Source of the DNA: Candidatus Avispirillum sp. | GTDB taxonomy: Bacteria > Bacillota > Clostridia > Oscillospirales > CAG-272 | Reading direction: 5' to 3' | DNA length: 41,975 nucleotides | NCBI GenBank assembly: GCA_045632025.1 | Contig: JAZQVW010000140.1 | Location: 1 to 41,975, forward strand | Shown here: piece after piece, positions 3,235 through 39,852 of the stretch | Position numbering within the stretch: position 1 is the first letter of the stretch | How the letters are laid out: each line of letters opens with the position of its first letter | Notes under the pieces: generated by a model | What the model was told of the DNA's origin: nothing | Seen by the model: the letters and a program-made list of their open reading frames with translations, nothing else | The model's database searches: none | Position numbers and translations under genes: made by a program

Positions 3235-3263
3235 CGCTGTATTGGCCTTCGCTTATTTTAATG

Positions 3264-4338: not shown

Positions 4339-4372
4339 TAAAACATTGGACAAATCGAGAAAGGTACGTACA

Positions 4373-4564: not shown

Positions 4565-4596
4565 ATTATATAACAACTTACAAAGAGAGACTTTTA

Positions 4597-5124: not shown

Positions 5125-5139
5125 AAGGAGGTAGTGTTA

Positions 5140-5766: not shown

Positions 5767-5809
5767 ATAAAACGGACGACCGATGCTGAATTATAGAATT
5801 GTATTAAAA

Positions 5810-5910
5810 CGGCGGGAGTAAACCCCCGCCCTACGTTATCAAATTTTGTGTAAGCCAAGCCCAGACTCCTCACCCACCGCAAAGCGGTCCCCCCTCCCCC
5901 AGGGGAGGGC
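5810..5910. repeat. GC-rich palindromic repeat cluster (unit 1 copy plus ~54-nt unit 2 copy)
   Basis: 5810-5837 CGGCGGGAGTAAACCCCCGCCCTACGTT matches the reverse complement of 3264-3292. 5857-5910 is the reverse complement, with a few substitutions, of 39706-39758. Confidence 0.8.
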
Positions 5911-11576: not shown

Positions 11577-13577
11577 ATGAAAGGTTTTTTTGAAAATCTG
11601 CTTTTTCATATAAAACGAAGAGTGCCTGCCATTGTGGCAAGTGCTTTCATTTTGTGCGCCTTTGCCCTTTACTATTTTGGAATTTATGATATCTCCTTTA
11701 TAAAGCGTCCCGATGCCTGGATGGATAATGCAACTCTGTTTTACGATGCTATGGACGAGATCTTCGGGCGCGAGGAGGAAACCACTCCCGCTCCTGAAAC
11801 AGAACCCGTAGAAACAGAGGATCCCGAAACAAAGCCCCTTGAAACAGAGCCTCAGGAGACAACACCTCCCGAAACAGAGCCTGAGGAAACTACTCCTCCC
11901 GAAACTGAGCCCGAGGAAACAAAGGATCCCGAGATCACACCCTCTACCGTTATGCCCACGGTCAGTCAGCTTGAGGCAGAGGATTTTTCTCTTACGGACA
12001 CTCCCTACGGAGAGGGCCATAAATTTGCGCTCCTTAAGACCTCGTATAAGCTTCCCAATAAGCTTTCCTTCAGAGATAAGACCTACAAAAAGAACGAGGT
12101 CGTTTCCTATGACGACGGTAAGCTCTCCGAAATAAAAACAGTTACCGTTACAGAGGACAGACTTGCCATAGAGCTTTATATGGGCTATATCCTCTACGAC
12201 GACGGCGGTAAGCTTTATCTTCTTGATTCAAAGGGAAATGCCCTCACCAAATACGACGACAAGGAGTTTATACCCGCTTATACAAGAGACAGAGAGGGAC
12301 GTCCTCTTTTCTATCAGGTAGTAGAGGAAACTATTGAATATCCCACCGAGTACGGCGAATTGGACGAGGAGGGCAAGCGCCCTTGGCTGAAGACCGCCAA
12401 GCTTAAGGTTGATAAGAAAAAATATTTCTATCTTGACGAGGACGGCAAGACCTTTACGGAAAGCACATACAACGATGCGACCGACAACAGAGGTCTTTAC
12501 TTTGACTATCCCGCATATTACGGTATCACCGACGAGGACGATACCGAAAAGGGCCTCGTTCGCTATTTCAAATATGCAACCAAAATACTTACACAGACAG
12601 TGACTGAAAAGGGCAAGGAGAAAAAGATCACATCCCTTGTTGACGTTGTCAGCTGGCTCTTTGACGAAAAAATAGAGCTTCCCGAGGACGAAAAGACCGA
12701 AGGGAAGACGGAAAAGACAGAGGAAACCACCGCTGTTGATTCAAGCGAAACAACACCCGATGGCGAGGAGATCAAATCTCCGCTTCAGCAGAAGGTTGAA
12801 GAGCTTCTTGAGGGGCAGGAGTTCCTCTATTCAAAGGCTTACGATTACAAGGAAGGCCATGCCGTTGTTCTTCGCGACGTTACCTGGAGCTATAAGGACC
12901 CCGACCTCTCAAAGGCTGAGGCTGATAAGGCTGAGCCCATTGAAGTGACTGCGCCCGAGATTCAGGTTATTGACGAAGAAGGTAAGGTAATGTTCACATC
13001 CCGCAAGAGCTTCACAAGCGACCTCGGCTGGAATGCAAACGAATACTACACCGAGCCGCTTCTTCGCGATATCTCCTCCATCGGAAGCTATTATTTTGAC
13101 CACGGACTTCTCCGAATCCGACTCGTTTCCTACGACAGATATCAGTATATCAAATACGATATGTTTATGGTCGGCACGGATGACGACCTGCTTATCCGCC
13201 CCGACGGAACAAGATTCTATATCCCTGCAGGCTATAAGCTTGAAGGATATTCCGACGGAATGCTCCTCCTCTCAAGAAACGGCCTTTACGGCTATATGAA
13301 CTACAGAGGAAAATGGGTGGTCGAGCCCGAGCTTAAATACGGCGGCGCATTCGTTGAGGGCGTTGCCGCTATCCAGACAAGCGACGGTAAATGGGGTATG
13401 ATAGACACAAACGGCAATGCCGTTATCCCCTTTAAATATTCCTACGTTTCCAATATCTCAAGCGGCGTCGTTGCAGCCTACAGCGACAGCACGGGCTGGG
13501 AAATATACCATAAGATGGCCGTTATTGAGGATGAAGAGGACAAAGACGATAAAAAAGACAACAAAAAAGCTAATTAA
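11577..13577 (+). CDS. Membrane-anchored WG-repeat protein
   Basis: N-terminal TM helix, T/E/P-rich linker and C-terminal KWG-type repeats (GLYGYMNYRGKWVVEP…DGKWGMIDTNGNAVIPFKY). Confidence 0.8.
   Translation: MKGFFENLLFHIKRRVPAIVASAFILCAFALYYFGIYDISFIKRPDAWMDNATLFYDAMDEIFGREEETTPAPETEPVETEDPETKPLETEPQETTPPETEPEETTPPETEPEETKDPEITPSTVMPTVSQLEAEDFSLTDTPYGEGHKFALLKTSYKLPNKLSFRDKTYKKNEVVSYDDGKLSEIKTVTVTEDRLAIELYMGYILYDDGGKLYLLDSKGNALTKYDDKEFIPAYTRDREGRPLFYQVVEETIEYPTEYGELDEEGKRPWLKTAKLKVDKKKYFYLDEDGKTFTESTYNDATDNRGLYFDYPAYYGITDEDDTEKGLVRYFKYATKILTQTVTEKGKEKKITSLVDVVSWLFDEKIELPEDEKTEGKTEKTEETTAVDSSETTPDGEEIKSPLQQKVEELLEGQEFLYSKAYDYKEGHAVVLRDVTWSYKDPDLSKAEADKAEPIEVTAPEIQVIDEEGKVMFTSRKSFTSDLGWNANEYYTEPLLRDISSIGSYYFDHGLLRIRLVSYDRYQYIKYDMFMVGTDDDLLIRPDGTRFYIPAGYKLEGYSDGMLLLSRNGLYGYMNYRGKWVVEPELKYGGAFVEGVAAIQTSDGKWGMIDTNGNAVIPFKYSYVSNISSGVVAAYSDSTGWEIYHKMAVIEDEEDKDDKKDNKKAN
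11836..11925 (+). repeat. Three tandem ~30-nt units encoding the ETEPxETTPP linker
   Basis: CCTCCCGAAACAGAGCCTGAGGAAACTACT is followed directly by CCTCCCGAAACTGAGCCCGAGGAAACAAAG and preceded by a more diverged copy. Confidence 0.6.
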
Positions 13578-22131: not shown

Positions 22132-22171
22132 AAAAACTCCGCTGCAAAAGCGTGATGTCCTTAACGGAGAA
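22132..22171. repeat. attL of the integrated element (outer arm is the left half of a terminator stem, inner arm is the element end)
   Basis: AAAAACTCCGCTGCA-AAAGC-GTGATGTCCTTAACGGAGAA is the reverse complement of 33620-33658 except for the 5-nt centre and one arm mismatch. Confidence 0.8.
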
Positions 22172-22378
22172 AACGAAAAACCGAATAGGATAACAGAGAA
22201 AGGCAGCATAGTCTATGATGGCTATGCTGTCTTTTGCATTGTTTGATTATAGAAAAGTGAACTTGATTGAAAGCGTCGCAGAAATGCGGTGTTTTTTTGA
22301 ATATTATATCGAAAATCACTGGACTTGTGGAAAGTGTTGTGGTATGTGTTTGTGTTGCAAAAAGGAGGTGCAACGCAC

Positions 22379-22663
22379 ATGACAACACTTGAAGATCTGT
22401 ATTACGGTAACATCAGTCCGCACGAAAGGTACATAAAGCGCGGTTCGAGAGTCGATCAACTCGTAAAGCTCATATGCAAAAACGAGGAAAGCCTAACGGC
22501 AACGCTCACTGAGCAGCAGAAAGAAACCTTCGAAAAGTTTAAAGACTGCCAAAGCGAACTTGCAGGGTTAACCGAGCGAGATGCGTTCAGGGATGGCTTC
22601 ATCCTTGCAGTGCGAATAATGGTCGAAGCGATGGAAGGGTTAGAAACGGTGGATGACATATGA
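22379..22663 (+). CDS. Small element-backbone protein, hypothetical
   Basis: ATG at 22379 after AAAGGAGG. MTTLEDLYYGNISPHE… resembles, from memory only, a family common on clostridial transposons/ICEs. Its stop overlaps the next start. Confidence 0.6.
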   Translation: MTTLEDLYYGNISPHERYIKRGSRVDQLVKLICKNEESLTATLTEQQKETFEKFKDCQSELAGLTERDAFRDGFILAVRIMVEAMEGLETVDDI

Positions 22664-23370
22664 AAAAACTAATAATCCTTATTCTCTGCTGTGGGGTGGT
22701 GCTTGTGAGTATGGTGGGATGCGGTGGCAACACCGCACCACCGCCTACCGAGAGTCCATCAACAACGGTATCGAAAACGATAATAACAGAAACACCTACC
22801 GAAACAACACTGCCTGTAACGGCGGTAGAGCCAACTGAGCAAGAAAAAGAGCCTGTTCCCACCGAGGACAAGGAACCGGCAACCGAGACGACCGTGACCG
22901 CCACAGAGCCAACAACGACACAGCCAACAGAAAAAGCAACGACCACTGTAACAAACACCGCTAATGAAAAGGTTACTCTTCCGATTGAGAAAACCGTTGA
23001 AAGCACAACACCGCAGCTTACAGAAAGCGAAACGTCGGAAGCTGAACCGCCAAAAGAAGAACCAAAATGCGAAACGGAACCTATGAGGGTGACCGAGCCG
23101 GAACCTACAGAAAGGCCTGCTCCCTTTGATATCGACTACTGGATCGCATACGCAAGGAGCTACGCCGAAAGCAAAGGACTTATACTGAGCGATACGGCGG
23201 TGGATTGTTGGGACAACCCCGTCCGAGCAGGCGCACACTGCATTTTCCTCGAAAGAGATATTCAAAGCCGGCTTGACCGCTATGCAAAGGATGAGGACAT
23301 CGCCGATGTGTGGATCTGGGCAGAAGCCACGGACAACGACTGCTATGACATTTATATCGGCTACGCTTAA
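22660..23370 (+). CDS. Lipoprotein with T/P/E-rich linker and a small C-terminal globular domain
   Basis: Signal peptide with lipobox (LVSMVGC), a low-complexity linker and a C-terminal DIDYWIAYARSYAESKGL… domain. Confidence 0.75.
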   Translation: MKKLIILILCCGVVLVSMVGCGGNTAPPPTESPSTTVSKTIITETPTETTLPVTAVEPTEQEKEPVPTEDKEPATETTVTATEPTTTQPTEKATTTVTNTANEKVTLPIEKTVESTTPQLTESETSEAEPPKEEPKCETEPMRVTEPEPTERPAPFDIDYWIAYARSYAESKGLILSDTAVDCWDNPVRAGAHCIFLERDIQSRLDRYAKDEDIADVWIWAEATDNDCYDIYIGYA

Positions 23371-23447
23371 AAACAAAATAATTCCAAAACCAGGGCACTC
23401 ACTGGACGCGGCAATCCAACAGAGAAAACAAGAAACGAATAGGCCTA

Positions 23448-23482
23448 AAAATTCTGCTTAACATGGGCAGAATTTTTGTTTT
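23448..23482 (+). terminator. Intrinsic terminator at the backbone/cargo boundary
   Basis: AAAATTCTGC/GCAGAATTTT stem followed by TGTTTT. Confidence 0.65.
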
Positions 23483-23502
23483 ACAACATTTTCTCAAATT
23501 AA

Positions 23503-23531
23503 TTGAAATATTCACGATTTCGTGATATAAT
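23503..23531 (+). promoter_or_regulatory. Promoter with embedded perfect palindromic operator
   Basis: TTGAAA (23503-08), 17-nt spacer, TATAAT (23526-31). The spacer contains TCACGA-TT-TCGTGA (23512-23525). Confidence 0.7.
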
Positions 23532-23557
23532 ATAGACCAATGAAAGAGGGGGTCGTT

Positions 23558-23770
23558 ATGGCTGTATCTTATAAAAAGTTATTTCATTTGCTGATCGACA
23601 AGGGGATGACCAATGCTGAGTTGATGGAGAAAGCTGGCTTTAGTGCAAATATCATTACCCGAATCAAGCGTGACAATTATATTTCTCTCGATAGCATTGA
23701 GAAGATTTGCAAAACTCTGAACTGCGGTGTCGATGATATCTTAGAGTTCACCATGGAGGAAGAAGAATGA
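23558..23770 (+). CDS. XRE/Cro-type helix-turn-helix regulator (~70 aa)
   Basis: MTNAELMEKAGFSANIITRIKRDNYISLDSIEKICKTLNC is a classic HTH. The ATG at 23558 follows GAGGGGG, whereas the alternative ATG at 23540 would be almost leaderless. Confidence 0.85.
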   Translation: MAVSYKKLFHLLIDKGMTNAELMEKAGFSANIITRIKRDNYISLDSIEKICKTLNCGVDDILEFTMEEEE

Positions 23771-26727
23771 ATAATATTGCAGTAAAATTTATAGGCAAAG
23801 AATATTCCATACCAAAGGATGTTATAACCTATATTGATTTGCTTGATTTTGCTGATAACGTTCAGAAACAGTTAATGGCAGATTTTATCTCTATAATCAA
23901 AGGCAGAATTCAAAACAAAAATGTTGGTTTGATTGACGACGAGGATTTGCGAGCACAGATTGAAAAGCAAGTTGGACGATTTATTGCCAAACTTTGCGAT
24001 CAAGGGATTTTTACACGTACAGTTAACGACTATCTTAACGGTAACAAGGGATATGAGTATTTCTCCAAGGTAAATAAAGCGGCTCTCGAAAAGGTTAAAT
24101 CTTTTCTTATGCAGAGATTGGATTCTTTGCAAGAAGGTTATGAAGATGCTGTCCAAAGAGCTGAATCACATGTTACTGGAATGGGATTTTCTATTTGGTC
24201 GAGTAGCTTTGTTAATCATGCCATTTATGCTGCAATGGAAGCTTCCACCATCAACAAACAGGAAAAAGAAGCTTCTGCAAGATATCAAAAAGAAATTAGT
24301 GAACTGTGTTCCAAATTGGAGTCAGAATACGATAGAGCGACCAGTCAATATATAAACAATGAATATATCCCCAATATGGAAGCAGCACTTACTGTATTGG
24401 CTTATGAGTTGCTTGATAAATACGTGAACGATCTGATTGCAAACGATAAATTTGATAGAAGAACATTGGGATTCGTTGACATTAGCCGTTCAAATGATCT
24501 GTTGAAAAACCTAACCCTATCCAACAGCAAACAGGCTATACTCGAAAATGCTTTTGTCGCCTGCCCTTACAACATAGCTGTTTATATGCACGCAATGAAA
24601 TTGGAAATGTTGGATGAAGATACTTTTGAAACAGCCAATGTTTTCAAGCAAGGTTCAAAAATTATTTCGTTTTTGAAAGAATCTTTGGGTACGGCTGATT
24701 ATCCCAACTTTGTTGAGCCGAATTATTACAGTGCTTCTTTGTTGGCACGTTACGAAAATAAAAGCGCGAATGATGTCCTGTATCAGCACACAGCCTCTTA
24801 TGCAAATGCTGTGATTAGAGAGTATGAAAAAATTGTTAGAGCACTCGATAATCTCAATCAATGCAGGGACTACTTGCGCAAATTGAATGATGATGAGATT
24901 TTGTTAGGAGAAGGAACCTCAAAACGATTGGCAAAATCACTTGTTTATTCGATTGCACCGAATGACAACTGGAATATTCTTATGAAACAATGTGGTCACG
25001 CTGATCTGCTCGAAAGATTATTGGCTATTATGCCTGTAGGTTCGACCTTTGGAAGTAAAGAGGATTGCGATTCCTATTTAACGGAAGCTTTGTTCAATGC
25101 GTTGGAAGTAGCCCGTAAAGATTTGGCTCAAAGGATTTCAGAGAGCAGAGCTCGTGCTGAAGCCGAACGACAGAAACTTGAGGCGCAAAAAAGAAAGAAA
25201 CGTATTAAGACAACAGCTATTTTGTGTGCAATCGTTGCTGTTATTATTGTTGCTTTCTCTTTGCCCTCCATAATAGAAAATGCAAAGATCTTAAAAAGAG
25301 AAAGTTGTGTTGAAAAACAAATTCAAGCAGTAGTTGAACCATTAGAAAGCAAAATGGAGAATGCTACCGGCGTTGACATTATTATCGATTACTACTTCTC
25401 TTTGGAAAATGATTGGGACGACGAACAGTGGTATGAATGGACGTTTAGTGTTGAACTTCCTATTTTTGATGAATACAGAAAATCCAACAGCGCAAACGAG
25501 CAATCACTGTTAGAAGTAATGGATGTTTGCAAATCTCTTGTTGAAATTTATGATGATGTTTACGATGATTTAGATTTTGACTTCAAGGACGAAGATGTAA
25601 GAATTGTAATGGACTTTTCTGGTGGAAATTTCGGTTCGCTAAAAATCCATGATACATCTACATCAGAAACATTCTATTACGAAGAATATGGCGGAGATCG
25701 TTATCTTCATTCCTCTGATACTGAATATGTATTAGACAAAAATTCCGAAGTTGTTCAAGCGACAGAAAAGGAAGCAGCGTACAATGATGCCCTTTCTCTT
25801 ATGACTGCCCAAAAATATGATGAGGCTATTGAGATATTTGCAAAATTAAGTGGATATAAAGACAGTGTTGGCAAAATTACTGAATGTGAAAATGCTATCA
25901 TCGAATTAAAGTATAATGATGCTCTTGCTTTGATGTCTGCGCAAAAATATGACGATGCTATTATCATATTCACGGAATTGGGAGAATACAAAAACAGCGC
26001 ATCCAAGATAGTCGAATGTAACGAAGCTATTGCAGCCGTTATCGAAGCAAAATATAACGAAGCATCTTCTCTTATAGTCGAAGGAAAGTACAACGAAGCC
26101 TTATTGATTCTTGATGAAATCGGCGATTATAAAGATGCAGTTGCTTTGAAACAAAAATATGCGCTTCTCACCTGTGAATCTGGAGATGTTATCACATTTG
26201 GAACATACGAACAAGACAACAATCTTGATAATGGTGCAGAAGCTATCGAGTGGCTTGTTTTGAACAGAGACGGCAACAAGGCTCTTGTAATAAGCAAGTA
26301 TTGCCTTGAGCAAATGCCTTTCAACAACACTTTAGCGTCAGTTACATGGGAAAATTGTACAATTAGAAAGTGGCTCAATAACGATTTCTTTGATACAGCG
26401 TTTTCTACAGATGAAAAAACCTCGGTCCTTGTGTCGAATATCAGCTACCCGGATGATGTGGACCACGAAGAACCGACAAGAACAACAAAGGATAGAATTT
26501 TCCTTCTTAGCGAGAACGAAGCATTAGTGTATTTTGACTCGGATTCTGAAAGAGCAACGCAAACGACTGAATATGTTGGAGCTTTGCATTGTTACTGGAT
26601 TCTTCGTACAAATGGAAGTGTTTCTAACGTTGCCCATGTTGATACTTCTGGGTATGTGGGTTACTACGAAAATGTTGACCGTGAATGGTATATTCGTCCA
26701 GCCATGTGGATTGAGACAAGCGAGTAA
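23767..26727 (+). CDS. 986-aa single-pass membrane protein: ~475-aa helical cytoplasmic domain of unknown function, TM helix, and an extracellular region with three ~45-aa repeats and a DUF6273-like C-terminal domain
   Basis: Its start overlaps the HTH stop (ATGA), with a GGAGGA RBS. The TM segment is TTAILCAIVAVIIVAFSLPSII, preceded by a KRKKR cluster. The repeats have the form YNDALxLMxAQKYDxAIxIFxxLGxYKDS. The C-terminus (GDVITFGTYEQD…IEWLVL…IRKWLNNDFF…RIFLLSENE…YWILR…IRPAMWI) matches, from memory, a domain common in Firmicutes surface proteins. Confidence 0.8.
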   Translation: MNNIAVKFIGKEYSIPKDVITYIDLLDFADNVQKQLMADFISIIKGRIQNKNVGLIDDEDLRAQIEKQVGRFIAKLCDQGIFTRTVNDYLNGNKGYEYFSKVNKAALEKVKSFLMQRLDSLQEGYEDAVQRAESHVTGMGFSIWSSSFVNHAIYAAMEASTINKQEKEASARYQKEISELCSKLESEYDRATSQYINNEYIPNMEAALTVLAYELLDKYVNDLIANDKFDRRTLGFVDISRSNDLLKNLTLSNSKQAILENAFVACPYNIAVYMHAMKLEMLDEDTFETANVFKQGSKIISFLKESLGTADYPNFVEPNYYSASLLARYENKSANDVLYQHTASYANAVIREYEKIVRALDNLNQCRDYLRKLNDDEILLGEGTSKRLAKSLVYSIAPNDNWNILMKQCGHADLLERLLAIMPVGSTFGSKEDCDSYLTEALFNALEVARKDLAQRISESRARAEAERQKLEAQKRKKRIKTTAILCAIVAVIIVAFSLPSIIENAKILKRESCVEKQIQAVVEPLESKMENATGVDIIIDYYFSLENDWDDEQWYEWTFSVELPIFDEYRKSNSANEQSLLEVMDVCKSLVEIYDDVYDDLDFDFKDEDVRIVMDFSGGNFGSLKIHDTSTSETFYYEEYGGDRYLHSSDTEYVLDKNSEVVQATEKEAAYNDALSLMTAQKYDEAIEIFAKLSGYKDSVGKITECENAIIELKYNDALALMSAQKYDDAIIIFTELGEYKNSASKIVECNEAIAAVIEAKYNEASSLIVEGKYNEALLILDEIGDYKDAVALKQKYALLTCESGDVITFGTYEQDNNLDNGAEAIEWLVLNRDGNKALVISKYCLEQMPFNNTLASVTWENCTIRKWLNNDFFDTAFSTDEKTSVLVSNISYPDDVDHEEPTRTTKDRIFLLSENEALVYFDSDSERATQTTEYVGALHCYWILRTNGSVSNVAHVDTSGYVGYYENVDREWYIRPAMWIETSE
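25777..26175 (+). repeat. Three tandem ~135-nt coding repeats (TPR/Sel1-like helical hairpins)
   Basis: AAYNDALSLMTAQKYDEAIEIFAKLSGYKDSVGKITEC / KYNDALALMSAQKYDDAIIIFTELGEYKNSASKIVEC / KYNEASSLIVEGKYNEALLILDEIGDYKDAVALKQKY. Confidence 0.7.
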
Positions 26728-26770
26728 CAAAGCCTTCCGTATTTGCATTCTTGTAATGGAGGTGACTAAA

Positions 26771-27409
26771 ATGAATGTCAAAGATTGGGGACAACGTATT
26801 TCTCACAGAACAGATATAAGCATGGGGCTTGTTCATCTTACCAAAGGAGACAGAGAACTTAGTTCTCTTGCTGTTTTGATGAAAATTCTCGAAGAAAAAA
26901 CAATATTGGGCAGCACAAACAAAATAGTAGGCGGACATCCAAGAGGGTTTATATGTGGTAGTGATCCCGTTGTTTGCTTTCAAGATGTTCCTTTACATTC
27001 TCTCTCAGAAAACATTTTTTGGGAACAGCAACTACATGATAAAACCCCGGAAGCGCCAATAAGGTATGCTCCTTTTGGACTACGCTTTGATAAAAGGTAT
27101 GTTTTTAGAAATGGCGGAAGGCCTGTCATTTACGAGGATACCAACATCGCAAAAAATTTTCTTCCCGAAAATGAATACTGGCGAATTGTTAAACTCGATT
27201 TGGACAGCGACGATAATATTGTTGACTGGACACATGAACGAGAATGGCGAATCAAGGGAGATTTTCATTTCGAACTTAGTGAGGTAGAAATTCTTCTAAG
27301 CGACCAAACTTCTCTAAAGAAATTCAACAGATACTGCAAAGAGAAGAATATGGAGAACCTTCTAAATGAAATTAAAGGAATTGTGATTCTCAAAAGCCTT
27401 CTGTTCTAA
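26771..27409 (+). CDS. AbiGi-like (abortive-infection family) protein, 212 aa
   Basis: ATG at 26771 lies 7 nt after GGAGGTG. The blocks VVCFQDVPLHSLSENI, YAPFGLRFDKRYVFRNGGRPVIYED and WTHEREWRIKGDF parallel the C-F-x-D-x-P / YG-x-G-I / P-V-x-Y / EREWR pattern I recall for AbiGi-type proteins. Confidence 0.6.
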   Translation: MNVKDWGQRISHRTDISMGLVHLTKGDRELSSLAVLMKILEEKTILGSTNKIVGGHPRGFICGSDPVVCFQDVPLHSLSENIFWEQQLHDKTPEAPIRYAPFGLRFDKRYVFRNGGRPVIYEDTNIAKNFLPENEYWRIVKLDLDSDDNIVDWTHEREWRIKGDFHFELSEVEILLSDQTSLKKFNRYCKEKNMENLLNEIKGIVILKSLLF

Positions 27410-27413
27410 GTCC

Positions 27414-27467
27414 AGTTATGGAGCACTTCGTTCGTTGTTCGGATGAGGTGCTCCATAACTATTTTTC
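27414..27467 (+). terminator. Strong intrinsic terminator splitting the cargo into two units
   Basis: 13-bp perfect stem AGTTATGGAGCAC/GTGCTCCATAACT followed by ATTTTTC. Confidence 0.7.
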
Positions 27468-27515
27468 AGTTGATGTTACTTGTCGTGAATACAAAATATA
27501 ACTTTGGAGGAAAAA

Positions 27516-28118
27516 ATGGAACTCATTATTACATTCTTAGAATCAAACTTGTTGTCTGCACTTGTTTCTGCAGTTGTTTCCGGTCTCATTGCCATAATAG
27601 GTATTCGCTTATCTTACAAGCTCTCTGTGAGCGAAACACAGAAGGCAATGGAGTATTTTAAGTCTCAGCTCACCAAGAAAGTTTATGCTTCCTCGAAACG
27701 TTCTGATATGGAATATGAGATATTCCATACGTTAGGGAGAATCTGCGGTGAGATTCATTTAGTCATGGAACGCTTTTACCCCGACAAGATGAGCTTGCTT
27801 TTATTGAACAGTGCGGAAAAGCCTACTCTAAAAGAATTGGCTAACAAAATCCATGACCTGGATATAGAATTAAATATTCATAGGGCCTTTATTCCAAAAG
27901 AAATTGTGACACTGTTTGAAGAGCTAATAAAAGACGCAGAGCAATTTTTTGATGATGCAGAAAAGCATATTGATTGTTGGGATGATACAAAGGACGATAA
28001 AAACAGAAAAGAAAAACTACGATGCACTGCCTATGAAAAGAGATTAGCATTTTACGAAAAATGGAAGTCTTCAAGTGCAAAATGTCTGGAATATCTACAG
28101 TCAAAAGAATTGGTGTAA
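27516..28118 (+). CDS. Small membrane-anchored helical protein, hypothetical (200 aa)
   Basis: ATG at 27516 lies 5 nt after GGAGG. One N-terminal TM helix (LLSALVSAVVSGLIAIIGI). The rest is charged and helical with no known motif. Confidence 0.6.
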   Translation: MELIITFLESNLLSALVSAVVSGLIAIIGIRLSYKLSVSETQKAMEYFKSQLTKKVYASSKRSDMEYEIFHTLGRICGEIHLVMERFYPDKMSLLLLNSAEKPTLKELANKIHDLDIELNIHRAFIPKEIVTLFEELIKDAEQFFDDAEKHIDCWDDTKDDKNRKEKLRCTAYEKRLAFYEKWKSSSAKCLEYLQSKELV

Positions 28119-28163
28119 AATCTGATTTTGATAAATAGTATTTTTCAAAAGGAGGGGCAATGT

Positions 28164-29747
28164 TTGAATATTAGAGATATTGAAAAAATAATAGACGATG
28201 CACACAAAGGACACGAAATTTTCAAAATGAATAAAGAGCAGGCAATTTATTCTACATTATCGACATTTGAATATTCGTGCAGTTCGGTAATGATGGCAAG
28301 TGTCTTAAATCCGTTTGCATTAAAAAGCATTACTGATCTAATGGACGCATTGAATATGGCGTTGACATGGATAAATGAACTGTGTCCCGTTTCCGACGAC
28401 GGCACTATCCAATTGGAGATGTCCGAGGAATGTAATCAACAGTGCTGTGACTTCTTGCACAATCACGCTTACCCCTATTCTGTGATTTGCAGCGGATACA
28501 TAGCGTACTCAAGAAAACGCTTCAAAGCAAATGTTGTCGATAATTGCGTTACCTTTGATCTGGCTGACAATCAAAACAATTCGGCATGGAATGATATTCT
28601 CAGAGAAGCTACGAGTAATGATTTAAGTAGCCTGTCTGCCCTCGTTAATCCTTATGAATTGTTGCGAGCAAGCGGCGAGATAAAAAAACATACCACTATA
28701 GAAAACGGAATGTTGTGCTACGCTCTATCTGGCGATGTTTTCGATGCTTTTGAAAAGATGGCACGTGCTCATTGGGAAGCCGCAAAGACTTTGCCAGAAA
28801 ACTGGAAGTTTGAGAAATTTTCTTTGGCTGAGTATAAAGAGTTTTGGATTGCTTTAACTTCCTTGTGCTATGTGCATCTTTGCAGTTGCTTTAGCATTGA
28901 AGAACAGTTGCTCAAATTGAAAAATAGTACTATAGTACAAAACAAGCAATGCATTGTTAATTTCATCAAATCTCGAACCAAACTTGACGAAAACAAGATA
29001 CTGACGCTCATTGACTACATTACTTATGAGCCGCAAAAAACAAATGTTGATATCATGTACCAACCCATAGTAGCTTTGAATGATAGTACTATAATCATCA
29101 CTCCTACTCTTTTTATGGGATCTCGTCCTGAACGAAATTTACTATCAGTTGTAAGCACAAGGAAAGATAAGGAATACTTCAACGAAGTTAACGATTTGGA
29201 AGGTTTGATGGTCTCAGAGTTGGAATCCTATGTGAAATCAGAATACATAGCAAAGCATAAACATTTGCGTGATGATTTGCCTGATCTTGATTTCGCAGTT
29301 TTAGATAAAGAGACTAACTCAGCTTTGATTTGCGAAACAAAGTGGTTTGCTCCTGCTGATTCTTCAAAAGAGGTTTACGCCAAGGAAGATGAAATAAATC
29401 ATGGATGTCAGCAAGTTGAGGATATCATGTCTTATGCTATGGCTGACAAAAAGCATTTCTTCAAGCAAGTGTTTGGTGTTGAGAATGGAGAGACGATTGA
29501 CCTGTTTTGGTGTGTTGTTGCAAAACACAACATTCGAACGCAAAACAGAATTGTTCCGGTAATAGATTTGAAGAGAATCGAAGACTTGTTTTCTTCAAAT
29601 TCTCTTAATACTGTTTTTCATCTCATACGCAACCATGAATATGAAATTAAGATGCCCGATGATGTTTCGATTACACATCAAGAAGTAGAATACGCTGGTT
29701 TTAAGTTCAAAATTCCTGCGCTTTGTTTGGGAAATATGCCAGAATAA
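28164..29747 (+). CDS. ~527-aa protein with a C-terminal PD-(D/E)xK nuclease-like motif and a large uncharacterised N-terminal region
   Basis: An in-frame TTG at 28164 lies 8 nt after GGAGG; the ORF-track start at 28128 is also possible. The C-terminal region has ELE…LPDLDFAVLDKETNSALICETKWFAP…CQQVEDIMSY, meaning E, PD, ExK and a downstream Q..Y, as in restriction-endonuclease-fold/Shedu-type domains. Confidence 0.65.
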   Translation: MNIRDIEKIIDDAHKGHEIFKMNKEQAIYSTLSTFEYSCSSVMMASVLNPFALKSITDLMDALNMALTWINELCPVSDDGTIQLEMSEECNQQCCDFLHNHAYPYSVICSGYIAYSRKRFKANVVDNCVTFDLADNQNNSAWNDILREATSNDLSSLSALVNPYELLRASGEIKKHTTIENGMLCYALSGDVFDAFEKMARAHWEAAKTLPENWKFEKFSLAEYKEFWIALTSLCYVHLCSCFSIEEQLLKLKNSTIVQNKQCIVNFIKSRTKLDENKILTLIDYITYEPQKTNVDIMYQPIVALNDSTIIITPTLFMGSRPERNLLSVVSTRKDKEYFNEVNDLEGLMVSELESYVKSEYIAKHKHLRDDLPDLDFAVLDKETNSALICETKWFAPADSSKEVYAKEDEINHGCQQVEDIMSYAMADKKHFFKQVFGVENGETIDLFWCVVAKHNIRTQNRIVPVIDLKRIEDLFSSNSLNTVFHLIRNHEYEIKMPDDVSITHQEVEYAGFKFKIPALCLGNMPE

Positions 29748-29940
29748 ATCGGAACACTGTTGGCTCGCCACCAACGGTGTTCTCGTTCTCATAAAACTAT
29801 CATTGGCAGCGTTGACAGGAAATAATGCTGTAAAAAATATATCCTCTCATACATGACAACTGAATCTAAATGTTTGACCATACGGATATTCACCTATAAT
29901 TTGTAATATCTTCAAATCTATTTGGATAACATAAAATTTC

Positions 29941-29971
29941 AAAAGGCACCGCTTCGGCGGTGCCTTTGCTT
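29941..29971. terminator. Bidirectional intrinsic terminator at the right cargo boundary
   Basis: AAAA-GGCACCGC-TTCG-GCGGTGCC-TTTGCTT. A second, 12-bp hairpin lies at 29752-29782 directly after the nuclease gene. Confidence 0.7.
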
Positions 29972-30023
29972 ATGCCTAAACAGAATAGTATTCCCGTTTT
30001 TCTTGCACTTTATTCACCCTACC

Positions 30024-30053
30024 TTGACAAAAGTTTCCTGCGTATGGTATAAT
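30024..30053 (+). promoter_or_regulatory. Near-consensus extended -10 promoter
   Basis: TTGACA (30024-29), 18-nt spacer, TGgTATAAT (30045-53). Confidence 0.7.
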
Positions 30054-30059
30054 AAAGAC

Positions 30060-30283
30060 ACCGAGAGATCGGATGAAAAATGAATATTAAGTGCCACGAC
30101 AGTTACCACTGTCACCCCGTCGCTTGAAAGACAGCGACATACTTATTTATCTGCTCATTTAGAGCAAGCACTAATTAGAGTTATAGACTCGTACATACAT
30201 CGGCACGGAACATTTTTAAGCGAACAATTTTGTTCGCCTGTTTGTGTTTCCGTATCGATGTATGTGCGAGTCTTTTTGTTTTG
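30060..30283 (+). ncRNA. Candidate ~220-nt structured RNA (or terminator-containing leader) of unknown class
   Basis: It starts just after the promoter. Five hairpins are present: 30061-72, 30098-113, 30119-138, 30152-166, and a ~28-bp-arm hairpin at 30185-30273 enclosing GCGAACA/TGTTCGC. It ends in TTTTTGTTTT. The only ORF is 5 codons long. Confidence 0.5.
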
Positions 30284-30371
30284 CTCTCGCCGTGATTACA
30301 TAAAAATCGAAAGGTGGAATGCAGATGATTGTATCAAAATTTAGAATCAACAAAAACGAAAGGAGGATCGG

Positions 30372-30659
30372 ATGCAACACAAAAATTTCTTTATGGTTCC
30401 CAACCGCATCTTTGATTTAGAACTAAAGCCGAGGGACTTCACCGTGTATTGCTGTCTGCTTCGGCACAGTGACAGCAAGGACGGCTCCTGCTTCCCCTCG
30501 CGGAGAGTCATCGCAAAGGAGTGCGGTATGGATAGGAAAACCGTTGACTCTGCCATTGAAAATCTCTCGTCCCTTGGTCTGGTGAAAAAGATTCAGCGGC
30601 ACCGAGAGGATGGAACGAGAACGAGCAATCTCTACTACGTGGCAAACCTCTTGGAGTAG
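30372..30659 (+). CDS. Winged-helix/HTH protein of the element backbone (replication-initiator-like HTH)
   Basis: AAAGGAGG RBS. FFMVPNRIFDL…FTVYCCLLRHSD…CFPSRRVIAKECGMDRKTVDSAIENLSSLGLV is typical of HTH proteins found next to serine recombinases on clostridial elements. Confidence 0.7.
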   Translation: MQHKNFFMVPNRIFDLELKPRDFTVYCCLLRHSDSKDGSCFPSRRVIAKECGMDRKTVDSAIENLSSLGLVKKIQRHREDGTRTSNLYYVANLLE

Positions 30660-31165
30660 AGTGAATTTTTCATCGGGATAGTGTCAGAATTTCCTATCAA
30701 GAAGAAAACCCATAGAACAAAACCCAGGAATTACTACAACAGAAAAAGAGAAAAGATAACCACCACGGAGCGCCCATGTGTCGCCCACAGACCGCCTGTG
30801 TGCCGAGGAACGCAGAGATGCGAGGAAACACCCGACCAAAAGAAAACCGCCCGTTTGGGGCGATTTGAGGGCAAGGTTGGAACGGCAAAATGAGGTGTGA
30901 TGTAAGGCAGCTTTCAGGCATTTTCGATGGGTCGAAAATCAAGCAGGAGAAAGAGTCGGGGTCGTAAACGCCCCTCGACTCGGGTCACAGCGGACGGCAA
31001 CGCCGACCGCACAAGGGTTTTTGGCATTTTCGTTCTTTTCCCGAAGTGGTACCACTTTCGAGGATAAGGAGTCAATTTAGGCGGTGTGGAGTGCCAAAAG
31101 TGCCGTGAAACAAGGAAAATCATAGGCGACAATATAGGTGTCGTAAGCGGAAAGGAGAATTTACT

Positions 31166-31570
31166 ATGGCTACTAACAACAAAATCAAGTTTCCTTTTTG
31201 GGTAACACCAAAAACGATGGAAACCGTGAAAGAAATGTACAAGGACGATGATTGCCGGAGCCAATCGGAATTTATTGAGAAAGCGATAAACGCATATGTC
31301 GGCTATCTACGGGCAGATAACAGTCCAGGAATGCTGCCGAATTATATGGTCTCCACGATGAAGGCTATTGTGGACAGCAGCGAAACACGAATGTGCAGAA
31401 TGCTGTTCAAGCTGGCGGTGGAGATGGCGATCACGATGAACGTCCTCGCAGCTCACTGTGATATAGAAGAAGGAAGTCTTGCTAACCTTCGCCAAAGCTG
31501 TATCGACGAAGTGAAACGAATTAACGGAACGCTTGGATTTGAAGATGCCTACTATTGGCAGAAGGGCTGA
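31166..31570 (+). CDS. Element-backbone protein with a ribbon-helix-helix-like N-terminus, hypothetical
   Basis: AAAGGAG RBS. The RSQSEFIEKAINAY motif resembles CopG/RHH proteins. The position upstream of the recombinase suggests a regulatory or directionality role. Confidence 0.55.
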   Translation: MATNNKIKFPFWVTPKTMETVKEMYKDDDCRSQSEFIEKAINAYVGYLRADNSPGMLPNYMVSTMKAIVDSSETRMCRMLFKLAVEMAITMNVLAAHCDIEEGSLANLRQSCIDEVKRINGTLGFEDAYYWQKG

Positions 31571-31586
31571 GAAAGGAGAACGGAAC

Positions 31587-31790
31587 ATGGATTATGAATT
31601 ACTGAAAAAGCGCAGAGAGAAATATCTAAAATTACAGAGAGAATTAGAGGAAGAACAGCATATCGGTCTCGGTTACGTGCTGACCGTAGAGGGAAAGCAG
31701 TATCCCGTACTGTCTTGTTTCTCTGTCAGTGGAAAAACGGAAGAAGCAAAGGACAAACTGAAATACCTTATCAACGGTCGAAAAAGTTAA
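31587..31790 (+). CDS. Small (67 aa) element-backbone protein, hypothetical
   Basis: ATG at 31587 after AAAGGAG. It lies between the RHH-like gene and the recombinase, a position often occupied by small Tnp accessory proteins. Confidence 0.45.
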   Translation: MDYELLKKRREKYLKLQRELEEEQHIGLGYVLTVEGKQYPVLSCFSVSGKTEEAKDKLKYLINGRKS

Positions 31791-31866
31791 CAAAACTGTT
31801 TCAGCAAAGTCGCTGGACTACTCGACCGAGTTGTGATATGTTGTTGCCGTATCCTATTCGGTTTGA

Positions 31867-33567
<1,701 letters not shown>

Positions 33568-33619
33568 AAAGTAATAACCGGAAGGTTTTTACACCTTCCG
33601 GTTACATACCACCCACCAA

Positions 33620-33658
33620 TTCTCCGTTAAGAACATCACGGAAATGCAGCGGAGTTTT
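33620..33658. repeat. attR of the integrated element
   Basis: TTCTCCGTTAAGAACATCAC-GGAAA-TGCAGCGGAGTTTT is the reverse complement of attL apart from the core. Confidence 0.8.
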
Positions 33659-39683: not shown

Positions 39684-39852
39684 TAATTTATCGTTTAGCG
39701 TAATGGCCCTCCCTTGGGGGAGGGGGGACCGCTTGCGGTGGGTGAGGAGTCTAGGCTTAGGACCAACGAAAAGCGAAGCCCAGACGCCTCATCCGTCTGC
39801 TTCGCAGACACCTTCCCCCCGGGGAAGGCTAACGCGCTAAATTATCGTTGAT
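39684..39852. repeat. GC-rich palindromic cluster bounded by TAATTTATCGTTTAG / TAAATTATCGTTGAT
   Basis: Unit 2 (39706-39758), the nested hairpin GCGAAGC-CCAGACG…CGTCTG-CTTCGC, and CCTTCCCC/GGGGAAGG. The flanking motif is the same as at 37521 and 37720. Confidence 0.75.

What the first reader, a model, noticed from the sequence alone, without database searches (positions are those of the whole stretch)
23503..27467. Operator-controlled HTH translationally coupled to a giant bitopic membrane protein, followed by an Abi-like gene, in one transcription unit
**Regulation and coupling.**
- A near-consensus promoter has a perfect palindrome, TCACGA-TT-TCGTGA, filling its -35/-10 spacer. This is the expected geometry for autorepression by the 70-aa XRE protein encoded immediately downstream.
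- The HTH stop overlaps the start of the 986-aa gene (ATGA).
- The next gene follows after 43 nt with its own strong RBS.
- The unit ends at a 13-bp-stem terminator.

**Topology of the large protein.** It has about 475 cytoplasmic residues with no catalytic motif I can recognise, one TM helix preceded by KRKKR, and about 490 extracellular residues.

**Interpretation.** This is a receptor-like topology physically linked to an abortive-infection-family protein. It raises the possibility of an envelope-sensing trigger feeding an intracellular effector. A lone TCGTGA half-site also lies in the putative promoter region of the next unit (27483-27488).
Basis: partly seen in the sequence, partly recalled or inferred. 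Interest (0 to 1): 0.75.

Follow-up and report, generated by a model that had tools for sequence, protein, structure and literature searches.

The report
Repressor-controlled cargo operon on a mobile element
A small repressor gene, a gene for a large membrane protein of an undescribed family and a toxin-like phage-defence gene form one operon inside an 11.5-kb mobile element of a gut Clostridia bacterium. The defence gene is a swappable passenger, not a fixed partner of the membrane protein.

Summary
**Observation.** The sequence features are real: promoter, palindrome in the spacer, 70-aa HTH_26 gene, ATGA overlap with a 986-aa bitopic protein, a third gene 43 nt later, and a strong terminator.
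- Promoter, palindrome and overlap are conserved in every related locus that carries this HTH, so autorepression is well supported.

**Setting.** The unit is low-GC cargo of an 11.5-kb element (22133-33658) with 39-nt inverted ends and a TnpX-like serine recombinase.

**Large protein.**
- Its 475-aa helical cytoplasmic domain has no Pfam, PDB-sequence or fold match.
- The domain defines a family of about 450 clusters and is always N-terminal.
- It is followed by one TM helix and a variable ectodomain, here TPR-like repeats plus the lectin-like DUF6273.

**Third gene.** It is a distant AbiGi-family protein with a DarT-like ADP-ribosyltransferase fold.

**Linkage.**
- No homologue of the third gene lies next to the large gene in any of 25 other loci.
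- That slot instead holds a HEPN-motif protein (9 loci), AbiH, TIR, Fic or unknown genes.
- Near-identical large-protein alleles carry different downstream genes.

**Verdict.** The sensor-to-Abi relay is not supported as a fixed system. A looser link between the membrane protein and toxin-like neighbours is real but unexplained. Interest is moderate.

The parts
22133..33658 (+). 11.5-kb integrated element: 39-nt inverted-repeat ends (22133-22171 and 33620-33658), low-GC cargo (23.5-30 kb, 37-40% GC against 45-50% in the flanks) and a large serine recombinase at the right end
   Evidence: - Inverted repeat I3, 87% complementary.
- GC profile.
- Housekeeping genes lie on both sides: dacB ends at 22124, and GH43 and typA follow 33.7 kb.
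- Backbone homology with L009 starts at 22138.
23446..23478 (+). Terminator-like hairpin plus T-run that ends the upstream lipoprotein gene and insulates the unit
   Evidence: - RNA fold -14.6 kcal/mol, z -3.8.
- An equivalent TTCTGC...GCAGAA hairpin is present upstream in L005, L009, L012 and L014.
23503..23531 (+). Sigma-70-type promoter: TTGAAA, 17-nt spacer, TGaTATAAT
   Evidence: - 11 of 12 consensus matches.
- Conserved in all five related loci aligned upstream of the HTH gene.
23512..23525 (.). Operator candidate: palindrome TCACGA-TT-TCGTGA inside the spacer, overlapping the extended -10
   Evidence: -.
- The TCACG/CGTGA cores are invariant in all the related loci where the site was found.
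- It is the only copy in the window.
23558..23770 (+). 70-aa XRE-type HTH_26 protein, predicted autorepressor
   Evidence: - HTH_26 E 5.5e-17.
- PADLOC 'control protein' 3e-4.
- PDB 3tyr transcriptional regulator 1e-9.
- 80-95% identical in 9 related loci.
23767..25191 (+). Large protein, residues 1-475: conserved all-helical cytoplasmic domain of an undescribed family
   Evidence: - No Pfam, NCBIfam, PADLOC or PHROG family.
- About 450 cluster representatives, with the domain N-terminal in the listed members.
- AF2 model pLDDT 86.8.
- No PDB or BFVD fold match below E 0.08.
- No PDB sequence match.
- The invariant hydrophobic motif TGMGFSIWSSSFVNH (137-151) overlaps the only low-confidence segment of the model, 138-156.
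25213..25275 (+). Single transmembrane helix (residues 483-503), preceded by KRKKRIK
   Evidence: - KD19 maximum 2.9, with 7 K/R before and 4 after.
- 168 of 174 family members have such a segment at 440-560.
25744..26715 (+). Ectodomain: TPR-like repeats (about residues 660-810; a 120-nt internal repeat at 25779-26030) and DUF6273 (residues 837-983)
   Evidence: - DUF6273 E 1.6e-23, with weak TPR hits.
- Direct repeat D2.
- DUF6273 is described as C-type-lectin-like in phage receptor-binding proteins (PMC10743442; bioRxiv 10.1101/2024.10.15.618418).
26771..27409 (+). 212-aa solo AbiGi-family protein with a predicted ADP-ribosyltransferase fold
   Evidence: - Weak AbiGi hits; 19 of 30 family members hit PF10899 only.
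- AF2 model pLDDT 87.3.
- The best PDB fold match is DarT 7omw (E 5.4e-3, probability 0.99, TM 0.5), followed by pertussis toxin S1, NatT, MbcT and Xre-RES at E 0.8-6.
- Invariant H22 and E156-x-E158.
27414..27460 (+). Intrinsic terminator that closes the three-gene unit
   Evidence: 21-pair stem, -34.5 kcal/mol, z -8.2, followed by TATTTTT.
27516..29747 (+). Second cargo unit: 200-aa protein with an N-terminal TM helix, then a 539-aa protein with a D...ExK-like motif. No family assigned.
   Evidence: - No significant family hit.
- Hydropathy.
- Absent from all related loci except L016, a near-identical copy of this element, which carries the 200-aa gene.
31906..33567 (+). Large serine recombinase (Resolvase, Recombinase, Zn_ribbon_recom, DUF4368), TnpX-like
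   Evidence: Related loci also carry serine recombinases, TnpV, DUF6809 and Mob_Pre.

Best explanation
**What it is.** This is an autoregulated accessory operon in the cargo region of an 11.5-kb Tn4451-like serine-recombinase element, in the chromosome of a gut Clostridia (Oscillospirales-type) bacterium.

**Step 1, regulation (sequence shown, binding inferred).** A dimer of the 70-aa HTH_26 protein binds the TCACG-N4-CGTGA palindrome between -35 and the extended -10. This blocks RNA polymerase and keeps the operon at a low, self-limited level.

**Step 2, coupling (shown in sequence).** The HTH gene is translationally coupled through the ATGA overlap, with a ribosome-binding site inside its last codons, to a bitopic membrane protein.
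- That protein belongs to an undescribed family: a conserved 475-aa helical cytoplasmic domain, one TM helix, and an exchangeable ligand-binding ectodomain.
- Here the ectodomain is TPR-like repeats plus the C-type-lectin-like DUF6273.

**Step 3, the third gene (inferred from comparison).** It is an AbiGi-family protein with a DarT-like ADP-ribosyltransferase fold.
- It is an independent, exchangeable defence or toxin cargo gene.
- It occupies a recombination hotspot between the large gene and the conserved backbone at about 29.95 kb, and it is transcribed from the operon promoter.
- It is not a dedicated signalling partner of the membrane protein.

**Step 4, role of the membrane protein (inferred, weakest step).** It most likely has its own function at the cell surface for the mobile element, such as defence, exclusion or recognition. 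This is judged from its mosaic, fast-changing sequence and from its company.
For: **Operator and coupling**
- Promoter, palindrome and overlap are in the sequence and conserved wherever this HTH occurs.
- The HTH is 80-95% identical across loci where the large protein's N-domain is only 44-70% identical.

**Element and cargo hotspot**
- Inverted ends lie at 22133/33658, with a GC dip, a serine recombinase and housekeeping flanks.
- L009 shares the backbone: DUF6809 99%, HTH 93% and the small HTH gene at 30372 97%.
- DNA homology with L009 covers only 22138-24643 and 29951-30864. The stretch from inside the large gene to 29.95 kb is therefore replaced.
- L003 shares the same right-hand boundary at 29936.
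- Homology breakpoints fall inside the large gene in L003, L019 and L023.

**Independence of gene 3**
- 0 of 25 other loci have a gene 3 homologue.
- The gene 3 family is larger, includes a Vibrio member, and occurs in other contexts.
- L012 and L021 (98% identical over the first 300 residues) carry TIR-wHTH versus a 140-aa gene plus split fam1. L009 and L010 (94%) also differ downstream.
- There is no shared domain among the downstream proteins.
- fam1 and the N-domain do not co-diverge (Spearman -0.22).

**Defence flavour of the slot**
- Among 35 downstream proteins, PADLOC hits include AbiH 9e-28, SoFic 2e-43, PD_DExK 4e-27, PDC-S04, NucC-like, bSEFIR and PDC-S19.

**Gene 3 fold**
-. AbiGi is listed among ART families in PMC12522546.
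Against: - No binding data exist for the HTH.
- 14 of 25 loci with upstream sequence have the large gene without an HTH_26 gene. The repressor therefore belongs to some backbones, not to the large protein as such.
- The downstream gene is always on the same strand and usually 45 nt or less away.
- The downstream genes are repeatedly toxin-type enzymes with no visible antitoxin.
- fam1 recurs in 9 of 25 loci, across distant N-domain clades, and its family is similar to the large-protein family in size and habitat.
  - These last three points fit a functional pairing as well as they fit a hotspot.
- The function proposed for the membrane protein rests only on context and architecture.
- The background rate of PADLOC hits in these genomes was not measured.
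Confidence: 0.55

Rival explanations
1. **Sensor with swappable effectors (a generalised form of the first reader's idea).** The bitopic protein senses an envelope or phage-adsorption signal through its lectin or TPR ectodomain. Its conserved cytoplasmic domain then holds or activates whichever toxic enzyme is encoded just downstream: ART here, and HEPN, AbiH, TIR or Fic elsewhere.
For: - The downstream gene is always on the same strand and close: 25 of 25 loci, and usually 45 nt or less away.
- 12 of 25 loci have a toxin or defence-type gene within two genes.
- HEPN-motif fam1 recurs in 9 loci across N-domain clades.
- The fam1 family is similar in size and habitat.
- No antitoxin is visible for gene 3.
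- The large gene and its neighbours move together between backbones with and without the HTH.
Against: - 0 of 25 loci carry a gene 3 homologue.
- Near-identical large-protein alleles pair with unrelated neighbours.
- No shared adaptor domain exists and there is no co-divergence.
- AbiH, SoFic and the gene 3 family exist as stand-alone genes elsewhere.
- Several loci have no recognisable effector: L013, L025, L031 and L039.
- PADLOC has no model that matches the large protein.
Confidence: 0.2
2. **Transmembrane anti-repressor.** The large protein's cytoplasmic domain sequesters or releases the co-translated HTH in response to an extracellular ligand. Operon and cargo expression would then be signal-dependent, by analogy with anti-sigma or RsgI-type and BlaR1/BlaI-type circuits.
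For: - The ATGA coupling is conserved in all 10 HTH-bearing loci, including one whose HTH is only 29% identical (L020).
- A third HTH_26 lineage lies directly upstream in L038.
- The variable ligand-binding ectodomain resembles sensor architecture.
Against: - 14 of 25 loci lack any HTH_26 gene upstream.
- HTH presence follows the element backbone (TnpV-DUF6809-HTH), not the large-protein phylogeny. L003 and L004 (without) are 91% identical; L009 and L010 are 94% identical.
- The 70-aa HTH has no extra domain for partner binding.
- No anti-sigma, peptidase M56 or kinase domain is present.
Confidence: 0.12
3. **Ordinary surface or adhesion protein.** The large protein happens to be carried as cargo and has no role in defence or regulation. 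Its gene neighbours are coincidental.
For: - The ectodomain modules (TPR, Sel1, RCC1, YD/RHS, DUF6273) are generic binding domains.
- Some loci sit among housekeeping genes (L025, L031).
Against: - A strongly conserved 475-aa cytoplasmic domain with many invariant polar residues is not needed for a passive adhesin.
- Most loci are mobile elements that carry defence-type genes.
- No cell-wall anchoring or adhesion locus context was seen.
Confidence: 0.1

Closest known systems
XRE/Cro-C1-type small autorepressors with the operator inside their own promoter (for example the controller C proteins of restriction-modification systems)
   Same: - A 70-aa single-domain HTH (HTH_26 5.5e-17; PADLOC 'control protein' 3e-4).
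- A palindromic site between -35 and -10.
- It is the first gene of the operon it would control, and it is coupled to the next gene.
   Different: - No binding or regulation data exist.
- The controlled genes are a membrane protein plus exchangeable cargo, not a restriction enzyme.
- The NCBIfam VanU hit (49.8 bits) is far below its cut-off of 150.
AbiG (AbiGi plus AbiGii) abortive-infection system of Lactococcus
   Same: - Gene 3 and 19 of 30 of its relatives hit only PF10899 AbiGi.
- It lies in a defence-type context on a mobile element.
   Different: - The hits are marginal: 23.8 bits, and NCBIfam 15 bits against a cut-off of 300.
- No AbiGii-like gene is nearby.
- Relatives of gene 3 also occur alone.
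DarT of the DarTG toxin-antitoxin and defence system, and other ADP-ribosyltransferase-fold toxins (RES/MbcT, pertussis S1)
   Same: - The best fold match of the gene 3 model is DarT 7omw (E 5.4e-3, probability 0.99, TM about 0.5). Other ART-fold toxins follow at non-significant E values.
- An invariant ExE motif is present.
- PMC12522546 places AbiGi and DUF2971 next to DarT.
   Different: - There is no sequence-level DarT match.
- No DarG macrodomain or other antitoxin is adjacent.
- Substrate and activity are unknown.
Tn4451/Tn4453-type mobilisable transposons (TnpX large serine recombinase, TnpV)
   Same: - A large serine recombinase with DUF4368 lies at one end, and the element has inverted-repeat ends.
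- Relatives carry TnpV, DUF6809 and Mob_Pre.
- Cargo lies between the backbone genes.
   Different: - No TnpV or relaxase was identified in this window.
- Excision and target site were not examined.
- The cargo is defence-type genes rather than catP.
Membrane-sensor defence systems with separate cytosolic effectors (Zorya, Kiwa). Recalled from own knowledge, not tested.
   Same: A membrane-anchored protein is encoded next to nuclease- or toxin-type genes in variable islands.
   Different: - There is no homology (PADLOC gives no hit for the large protein).
- There is no fixed partner gene.
- It is single-pass with a large ectodomain rather than a multi-pass or motor complex.
DUF6273 C-type-lectin-like receptor-binding domains of gut phages (targets of diversity-generating retroelements)
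   Same: The C-terminal domain is DUF6273 (1.6e-23), which PMC10743442 and bioRxiv 10.1101/2024.10.15.618418 describe as lectin-like and receptor-binding.
   Different: - Here it is on a cell-encoded membrane-anchored protein.
- No template repeat was detected in the window and no reverse transcriptase was seen among the ORFs scanned.
- The N-domain has no match in phage records or viral contigs.

Membership tests
XRE-type autorepressor and operator module | Cro/C1-type HTH domain | tested here: met
   HTH_26 5.5e-17 and HTH_3 1.6e-5; PDB 3tyr 1e-9.
XRE-type autorepressor and operator module | Palindromic site overlapping its own promoter, conserved with the gene | tested here: met
   The site is at 23512-23525 in the spacer. 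It is found in the related loci that carry this HTH, with intact TCACG/CGTGA cores.
XRE-type autorepressor and operator module | Protein binds the site and represses transcription | not testable with these tools
   Needs EMSA or footprinting, and reporter assays.
AbiG two-gene system | AbiGi-family protein | tested here: inconclusive
   - Pfam 23.8 bits against a cut-off of 22.4, with no single stretch passing.
- PADLOC 1.9e-5; NCBIfam 15 bits against a cut-off of 300.
- 19 of 30 relatives hit PF10899 only.
AbiG two-gene system | Adjacent AbiGii partner | tested here: not met
   - The neighbours (200 aa and 539 aa) have no AbiGii hit, or any other family hit.
- No AbiGii-family gene is annotated next to relatives of gene 3.
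DarTG-like ART toxin-antitoxin | ADP-ribosyltransferase fold with a catalytic motif | tested here: met
   - Foldseek best match DarT 7omw: E 5.4e-3, probability 0.99, TM 0.47-0.50.
- Invariant H22 and E156-x-E158.
- The match is at fold level only and modest in strength.
DarTG-like ART toxin-antitoxin | Cognate macrodomain (DarG) or other antitoxin next to it | tested here: not met
   No macrodomain or antitoxin family was found in 23.5-29.7 kb.
Membrane sensor plus dedicated effector defence system | Sensor and effector families co-occur across genomes | tested here: not met
   - Gene 3 homologues are next to the large gene in 0 of 25 other loci.
- Near-identical alleles have different neighbours.
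- The toxin-type class recurs in 12 of 25 loci.
Membrane sensor plus dedicated effector defence system | Match to a known defence-system model | tested here: not met
   PADLOC gives no family for the large protein.
Anti-sigma or BlaR1-type transmembrane regulators | Recognisable anti-sigma, peptidase or kinase cytoplasmic domain, with an obligate regulator partner | tested here: not met
   - No such domain is present.
- 14 of 25 loci lack the HTH_26 gene.
Tn4451-type serine-recombinase element | Large serine recombinase (with DUF4368) at an element end, and terminal repeats | tested here: met
   39-nt inverted repeats at 22133 and 33620.
Tn4451-type serine-recombinase element | TnpV and a Mob relaxase; excision to a circular form | not tested
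   - TnpV and Mob_Pre were seen only in related loci.
- The small ORFs at 30.3-31.8 kb were not scanned against families.
- Excision needs experiment.
DGR variable-protein target | Template repeat and reverse transcriptase nearby | tested here: not met
   No repeat of the 3' end of the large gene exists in the window. No reverse transcriptase was found among the ORFs scanned.
ClyA-family alpha pore-forming toxins (lead from the fold search) | Significant fold similarity | tested here: not met
   NheA, PaxB, YaxA/B and AhlC recur only at E 1.5-5.5 with TM 0.23 or less.

The most novel reading that the evidence does not exclude
The bitopic protein family is a previously unrecognised envelope-anchored sensor or regulator for toxic effectors carried by mobile elements in gut Clostridia.
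- Its phage-receptor-binding-like ectodomain (lectin, TPR, RCC1 or YD) would detect phage contact or surface damage.
- Its novel 475-aa cytoplasmic domain, with an invariant hydrophobic hairpin tip, would license whichever enzyme is encoded downstream: ART, HEPN, AbiH, TIR or Fic.
- Alternatively the cytoplasmic domain could itself act on the membrane.
Probability: 0.2. Interest if true: 0.8.

Novelty: new variant of a known kind. Interest (0 to 1): 0.5.

Why it matters
- It shows that this family of Tn4451-like elements in uncultured gut Clostridia carries a defence-type cargo slot. The slot lies behind a conserved promoter and operator and a conserved but unannotated membrane-protein gene.
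- It defines a family of about 450 clusters whose 475-aa cytoplasmic domain matches no known family or fold.
- That family is a reasonable candidate for a new surface-linked defence or exclusion function.
- It adds fold-level support that AbiGi-type proteins are DarT-like ADP-ribosyltransferases.
- The operator and repressor pair is a ready-made, testable regulatory part for organisms with few genetic tools.

Tried and rejected
**Searches on the N-domain that found nothing**
- Family searches of residues 1-475 in Pfam, NCBIfam, PADLOC and PHROGs.
- A profile search of PDB sequences: best E 0.14.
- Foldseek against PDB and BFVD: best E 0.16 and 0.08. ClyA-type toxins recur, but only at E above 1, so this was rejected as evidence.
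- Viral contigs, phage records and plasmid records: no match. The family is therefore not a phage or plasmid gene in those collections.
- The metagenome contig scan gave only 4 extra loci.

**Ideas tested and rejected**
- DGR targeting of DUF6273: no template repeat in the window.
- The lone TCGTGA half-site at 27483 as a second operator: half-site count is 17 against 18 expected.
- A second membrane segment at the invariant 137-156 motif: KD19 is 0.8 or less.
- A shared adaptor domain among downstream proteins: an all-against-all phmmer found only within-family matches.
- Co-divergence of fam1 and the N-domain: none.

**Left unresolved**
- PDB sequence searches for gene 3, the ectodomain and the 539-aa protein gave no hits.
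- Literature searches for DUF6809, and for TnpV/TnpX together with defence, found nothing relevant.

Full report

Yes.
- The + strand reads TTGAAA (23503-23508), a 17-nt spacer and TATAAT (23526-23531).
- TCACGA-TT-TCGTGA (23512-23525) fills the spacer. Its right arm supplies the TG of an extended -10.
- In the 9 kb around it, only this site and one other reach 11 of 12 consensus matches.
- Perfect 6-N2-6 palindromes occur 12 times in the 41,975-nt window. One falling inside a given promoter spacer is therefore a rare event.
- The HTH gene is 23558-23770: 70 aa, HTH_26 E 5.5e-17.
- Its TGA overlaps the ATG of the 986-aa gene at 23767.
- The third gene starts at 26771, 43 nt after the stop, behind GGAGGTG.
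- The unit ends in a 21-pair hairpin at 27414-27460 (-34.5 kcal/mol, z -8.2), followed by a T-run.
- A weaker terminator-like hairpin at 23446-23478 precedes the promoter, so the unit is insulated on both sides.
- The large protein has one hydrophobic segment, residues 483-503. It is preceded by KRKKRIK: 7 K/R in the 15 residues before it against 4 after it.

Two details need correcting.
- The isolated TCGTGA at 27483 is not above chance: 17 half-sites in the window against 18 expected.
- 'AbiGi-like' rests on marginal scores.

**2. Where it sits**

- Upstream of 22.1 kb lie recA, recX, miaB, mnmG, comEC, metA, ribF and a D-Ala-D-Ala carboxypeptidase. Downstream of 33.7 kb lie a GH43 enzyme, typA and a phosphate transporter.
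- Between them GC drops to 37-40% over 23.5-30 kb, against 45-50% elsewhere.
- A large serine recombinase with a DUF4368 domain lies at 31906-33567.
- A 39-nt inverted repeat (22133-22171 and 33620-33658, 87% complementary) brackets the whole stretch.
- Homology to the related locus L009 begins at 22138.
- The finding is therefore cargo of an 11.5-kb integrated element of the Tn4451/TnpX kind.
- Related loci carry TnpV, DUF6809, Mob_Pre, DUF6061 and serine recombinases.

**3. The large protein**

- Residues 1-475 match nothing in Pfam, NCBIfam, PADLOC or PHROGs.
- They are nevertheless strongly conserved. A word-indexed search found 148 homologues. A full profile search found 450 representatives of 50%-identity clusters.
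- In the listed members the domain is at the N-terminus, in proteins of about 500-1,136 aa.
- 168 of 174 members of 560 aa or more have a hydrophobic segment right after it.
- The C-terminal parts differ: TPR, Sel1, RCC1, YD/RHS, DUF6273, or a short Cys-rich tail.
- Here the ectodomain is TPR-like repeats plus DUF6273 (1.6e-23). Two papers describe DUF6273 as a C-type-lectin-like, receptor-binding domain of gut phages (PMC10743442; bioRxiv 10.1101/2024.10.15.618418).
- An AlphaFold2 model of residues 1-480 is confident (pLDDT 86.8) and almost entirely helical. It has a long hairpin, H94-137 and H150-225.
- The tip of that hairpin (138-156) is the only low-confidence stretch. It overlaps the invariant motif TGMGFSIWSSSFVNH.
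- No solved or viral predicted structure matches: best Foldseek E is 0.16 against PDB and 0.08 against BFVD, and a profile against PDB sequences gives E 0.14.
- ClyA-type pore-forming toxins recur in the list, but only at E 1.5-5.5. I treat that as a lead, not evidence.
- The family has no match in viral contigs, phage records or plasmid records.
- All relatives come from gut or rumen Clostridia metagenome bins: Oscillospiraceae, Acutalibacteraceae, Faecousia.

**4. The HTH and its site in relatives**

I assembled 27 distinct related loci.
- 25 of the 27 have usable upstream sequence.
- Nine of these carry this HTH at 80-95% identity.
- Two more carry other HTH_26 lineages directly upstream: L020 at 29% identity, and L038.
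- Fourteen have none. Some have an HTH_17, an AAA_14 ATPase or unknown genes instead.
- Wherever this HTH occurs with its upstream region, the promoter and palindrome are present with intact TCACG/CGTGA cores. The surrounding sequence diverges.
- The ATGA overlap, with GGAGG in the last HTH codons, is present in all 10 loci compared.
- HTH presence follows the element backbone rather than the large-protein phylogeny. L003 and L004 (without) are 91% identical over the first 300 residues, and L009 and L010 are 94% identical.
- The repressor and operator pair is therefore a real, conserved regulatory module. It is not an obligate partner of the large protein.

**5. The third gene**

- Its family is large: 851 hits, including one from Vibrio.
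- 19 of 30 members hit PF10899 AbiGi and nothing else.
- The alignment shows invariant H22 and DWTHEREWR, which contains E156-x-E158.
- The AlphaFold2 model (pLDDT 87.3) best matches DarT with NAD+ (7omw; E 5.4e-3, probability 0.99, TM about 0.5).
- Pertussis toxin S1, NatT, MbcT and Xre-RES toxins follow, at E 0.8-6.
- This agrees with a published survey that lists AbiGi as a poorly studied ADP-ribosyltransferase family near DarT and DUF2971 (PMC12522546).
- No AbiGii, macrodomain or other antitoxin gene is nearby.
- Gene 3 is best described as a solo AbiGi-family, ART-fold protein.

**6. Is gene 3 tied to the large protein?**

No.
- A gene 3 homologue lies next to the large gene only in four short contigs that are 99-100% identical to this element (L015-L018).
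- It is found in none of the 25 other loci with downstream sequence.
- Elsewhere gene 3 relatives lie next to a trypsin-like protease, a LexA-like gene and PemK in one island. In another serine-recombinase element they lie next to a LytTR gene.

What follows the large gene varies between loci.

| Downstream gene | Loci |
|---|---|
| fam1, about 296 aa (DUF3644, PADLOC candidate PDC-S19, RNNETH = Rx4H HEPN motif) | 9, two of them split copies |
| AbiH plus DUF6602 | L005 |
| TIR-wHTH | L012 |
| Fic / SoFic | L026 |
| SEC-C protein | L007 |
| Unknown family, 209 aa | 3 |
| Unknown family, about 140-151 aa | 3 |
| Unknown family, about 102-107 aa | 3 |
| Other unknown genes | remaining loci |

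- Alleles 98% identical over the first 300 residues (L012, L021) and 94% identical (L009, L010) carry different downstream genes.
- The downstream proteins share no domain.
- fam1 and the N-domain do not co-diverge (Spearman -0.22).
- L009 has the same backbone as the window: DUF6809 99%, HTH 93% and the small HTH gene at 30372 97%.
- DNA homology with L009 runs only over 22138-24643 and 29951-30864. L003 shares the right-hand edge at 29936.
- The exchanged segment therefore runs from inside the large gene to about 29.95 kb. Other relatives show homology breakpoints within the large gene.
- This is the signature of a recombination hotspot for cargo.

**7.

- The downstream gene is on the same strand in all 25 loci and usually 45 nt or less away.
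- It is often a toxic-enzyme type with no visible antitoxin.
- fam1 recurs across distant N-domain clades.
- The fam1 family (335 hits, same habitats) is of similar size to the large-protein family.
- I could not measure how often fam1 occurs without the large gene.
- I therefore keep a 'sensor with swappable effectors' reading at about 0.2.

**8. Most likely mechanism**

| Status | Statement |
|---|---|
| Shown | The anatomy of the operon |
| Shown | Conservation of the promoter, operator and coupling |
| Shown | The mobile-element setting |
| Shown | The exchangeable downstream slot |
| Inferred | The HTH dimer represses its own promoter by occupying the spacer |
| Inferred | All three genes are read from that promoter |
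| Inferred | Gene 3 acts on its own as an ART-type abortive-infection or toxin gene |
| Inferred (weakest) | The membrane protein has its own surface-linked role for the element, probably defence, exclusion or recognition |

The last inference rests on the protein's mosaic, fast-changing sequence, its phage-like binding domain and its company.

**9. Novelty and score**

- Autoregulated XRE operons and defence cargo hotspots on mobile elements are known kinds.
- The new parts are a conserved, unannotated 475-aa domain family with no fold match, its consistent placement ahead of a toxin-type slot in gut Clostridia elements, and the conserved operator.
- I rate this a new variant of a known kind, with interest 0.5.

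Noticed in passing
window 22133-22171 and 33620-33658: A 39-nt inverted repeat (87% complementary) brackets the whole island, including the serine recombinase. These are probably the element ends. Homology with L009 starts at 22138.
   Followed up: partly
L001 9672-10571; L002 8961-9851; L003 3140-4030; L004 8934-9818; L008 8305-9258; L011 3439-4329; L019 2069-2956; L021 9571-10487; L023 4656-5543: - The commonest gene downstream of the large gene is a protein of about 296 aa (fam1).
- It matches DUF3644 and the PADLOC candidate PDC-S19, and it carries an RNNETH (Rx4H, HEPN-type) motif.
- It is split in L021 and L023.
- Its family has 335 hits and a similar habitat to the large-protein family.
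   Followed up: partly
window 27516-29747: - This is a second low-GC cargo unit.
- It encodes a 200-aa protein with an N-terminal TM helix and a 539-aa protein with a D...ExK-like motif (LDFAVLD...ICETKW).
- There is no significant family or PDB hit.
- It is absent from related loci, apart from the 200-aa gene in the near-identical copy L016.
   Followed up: partly
window 30024-30053 and 30372-30659: A perfect consensus promoter (TTGACA, 18 nt, TGnTATAAT) lies ahead of a 95-aa HTH-like backbone gene. The region 29936-30864 is conserved with L003 and L009 and marks the right edge of the variable cargo slot.
   Followed up: partly
window 3242-3292 and 5808-5858 (also 3265-3369): A 51-nt inverted repeat (82%) with G/C-rich hairpins flanks a very low-GC stretch (29.5-39% GC) that holds ORFs at 3838-5733. 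This may be another small inserted element.
   Followed up: no
window 5857-5904 and 39711-39758: A 48-nt inverted repeat (81%) lies 34 kb apart. It looks like a dispersed repeat.
   Followed up: no
window 22325-23370: A DUF6809 gene (6.4e-28) is followed by a 236-aa lipoprotein-like protein with a Thr/Pro/Glu-rich linker. Both are backbone genes shared with L009 at 99% and 77% identity.
   Followed up: partly
window 11577-13577: A 666-aa protein carries WG_beta_rep repeats and tandem 30-nt ETEPEE-type repeats at 11792-11930. Similar repeats occur at 41359-41427.
   Followed up: no
L025 7001-9032; L031 2850-4861: Short forms of the large protein (558-567 aa: N-domain, TM helix and a Cys-rich CxxC...CxxC tail) are each followed by a conserved gene of about 105 aa. 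They lie in otherwise housekeeping contexts, without the HTH or any defence genes.
   Followed up: no
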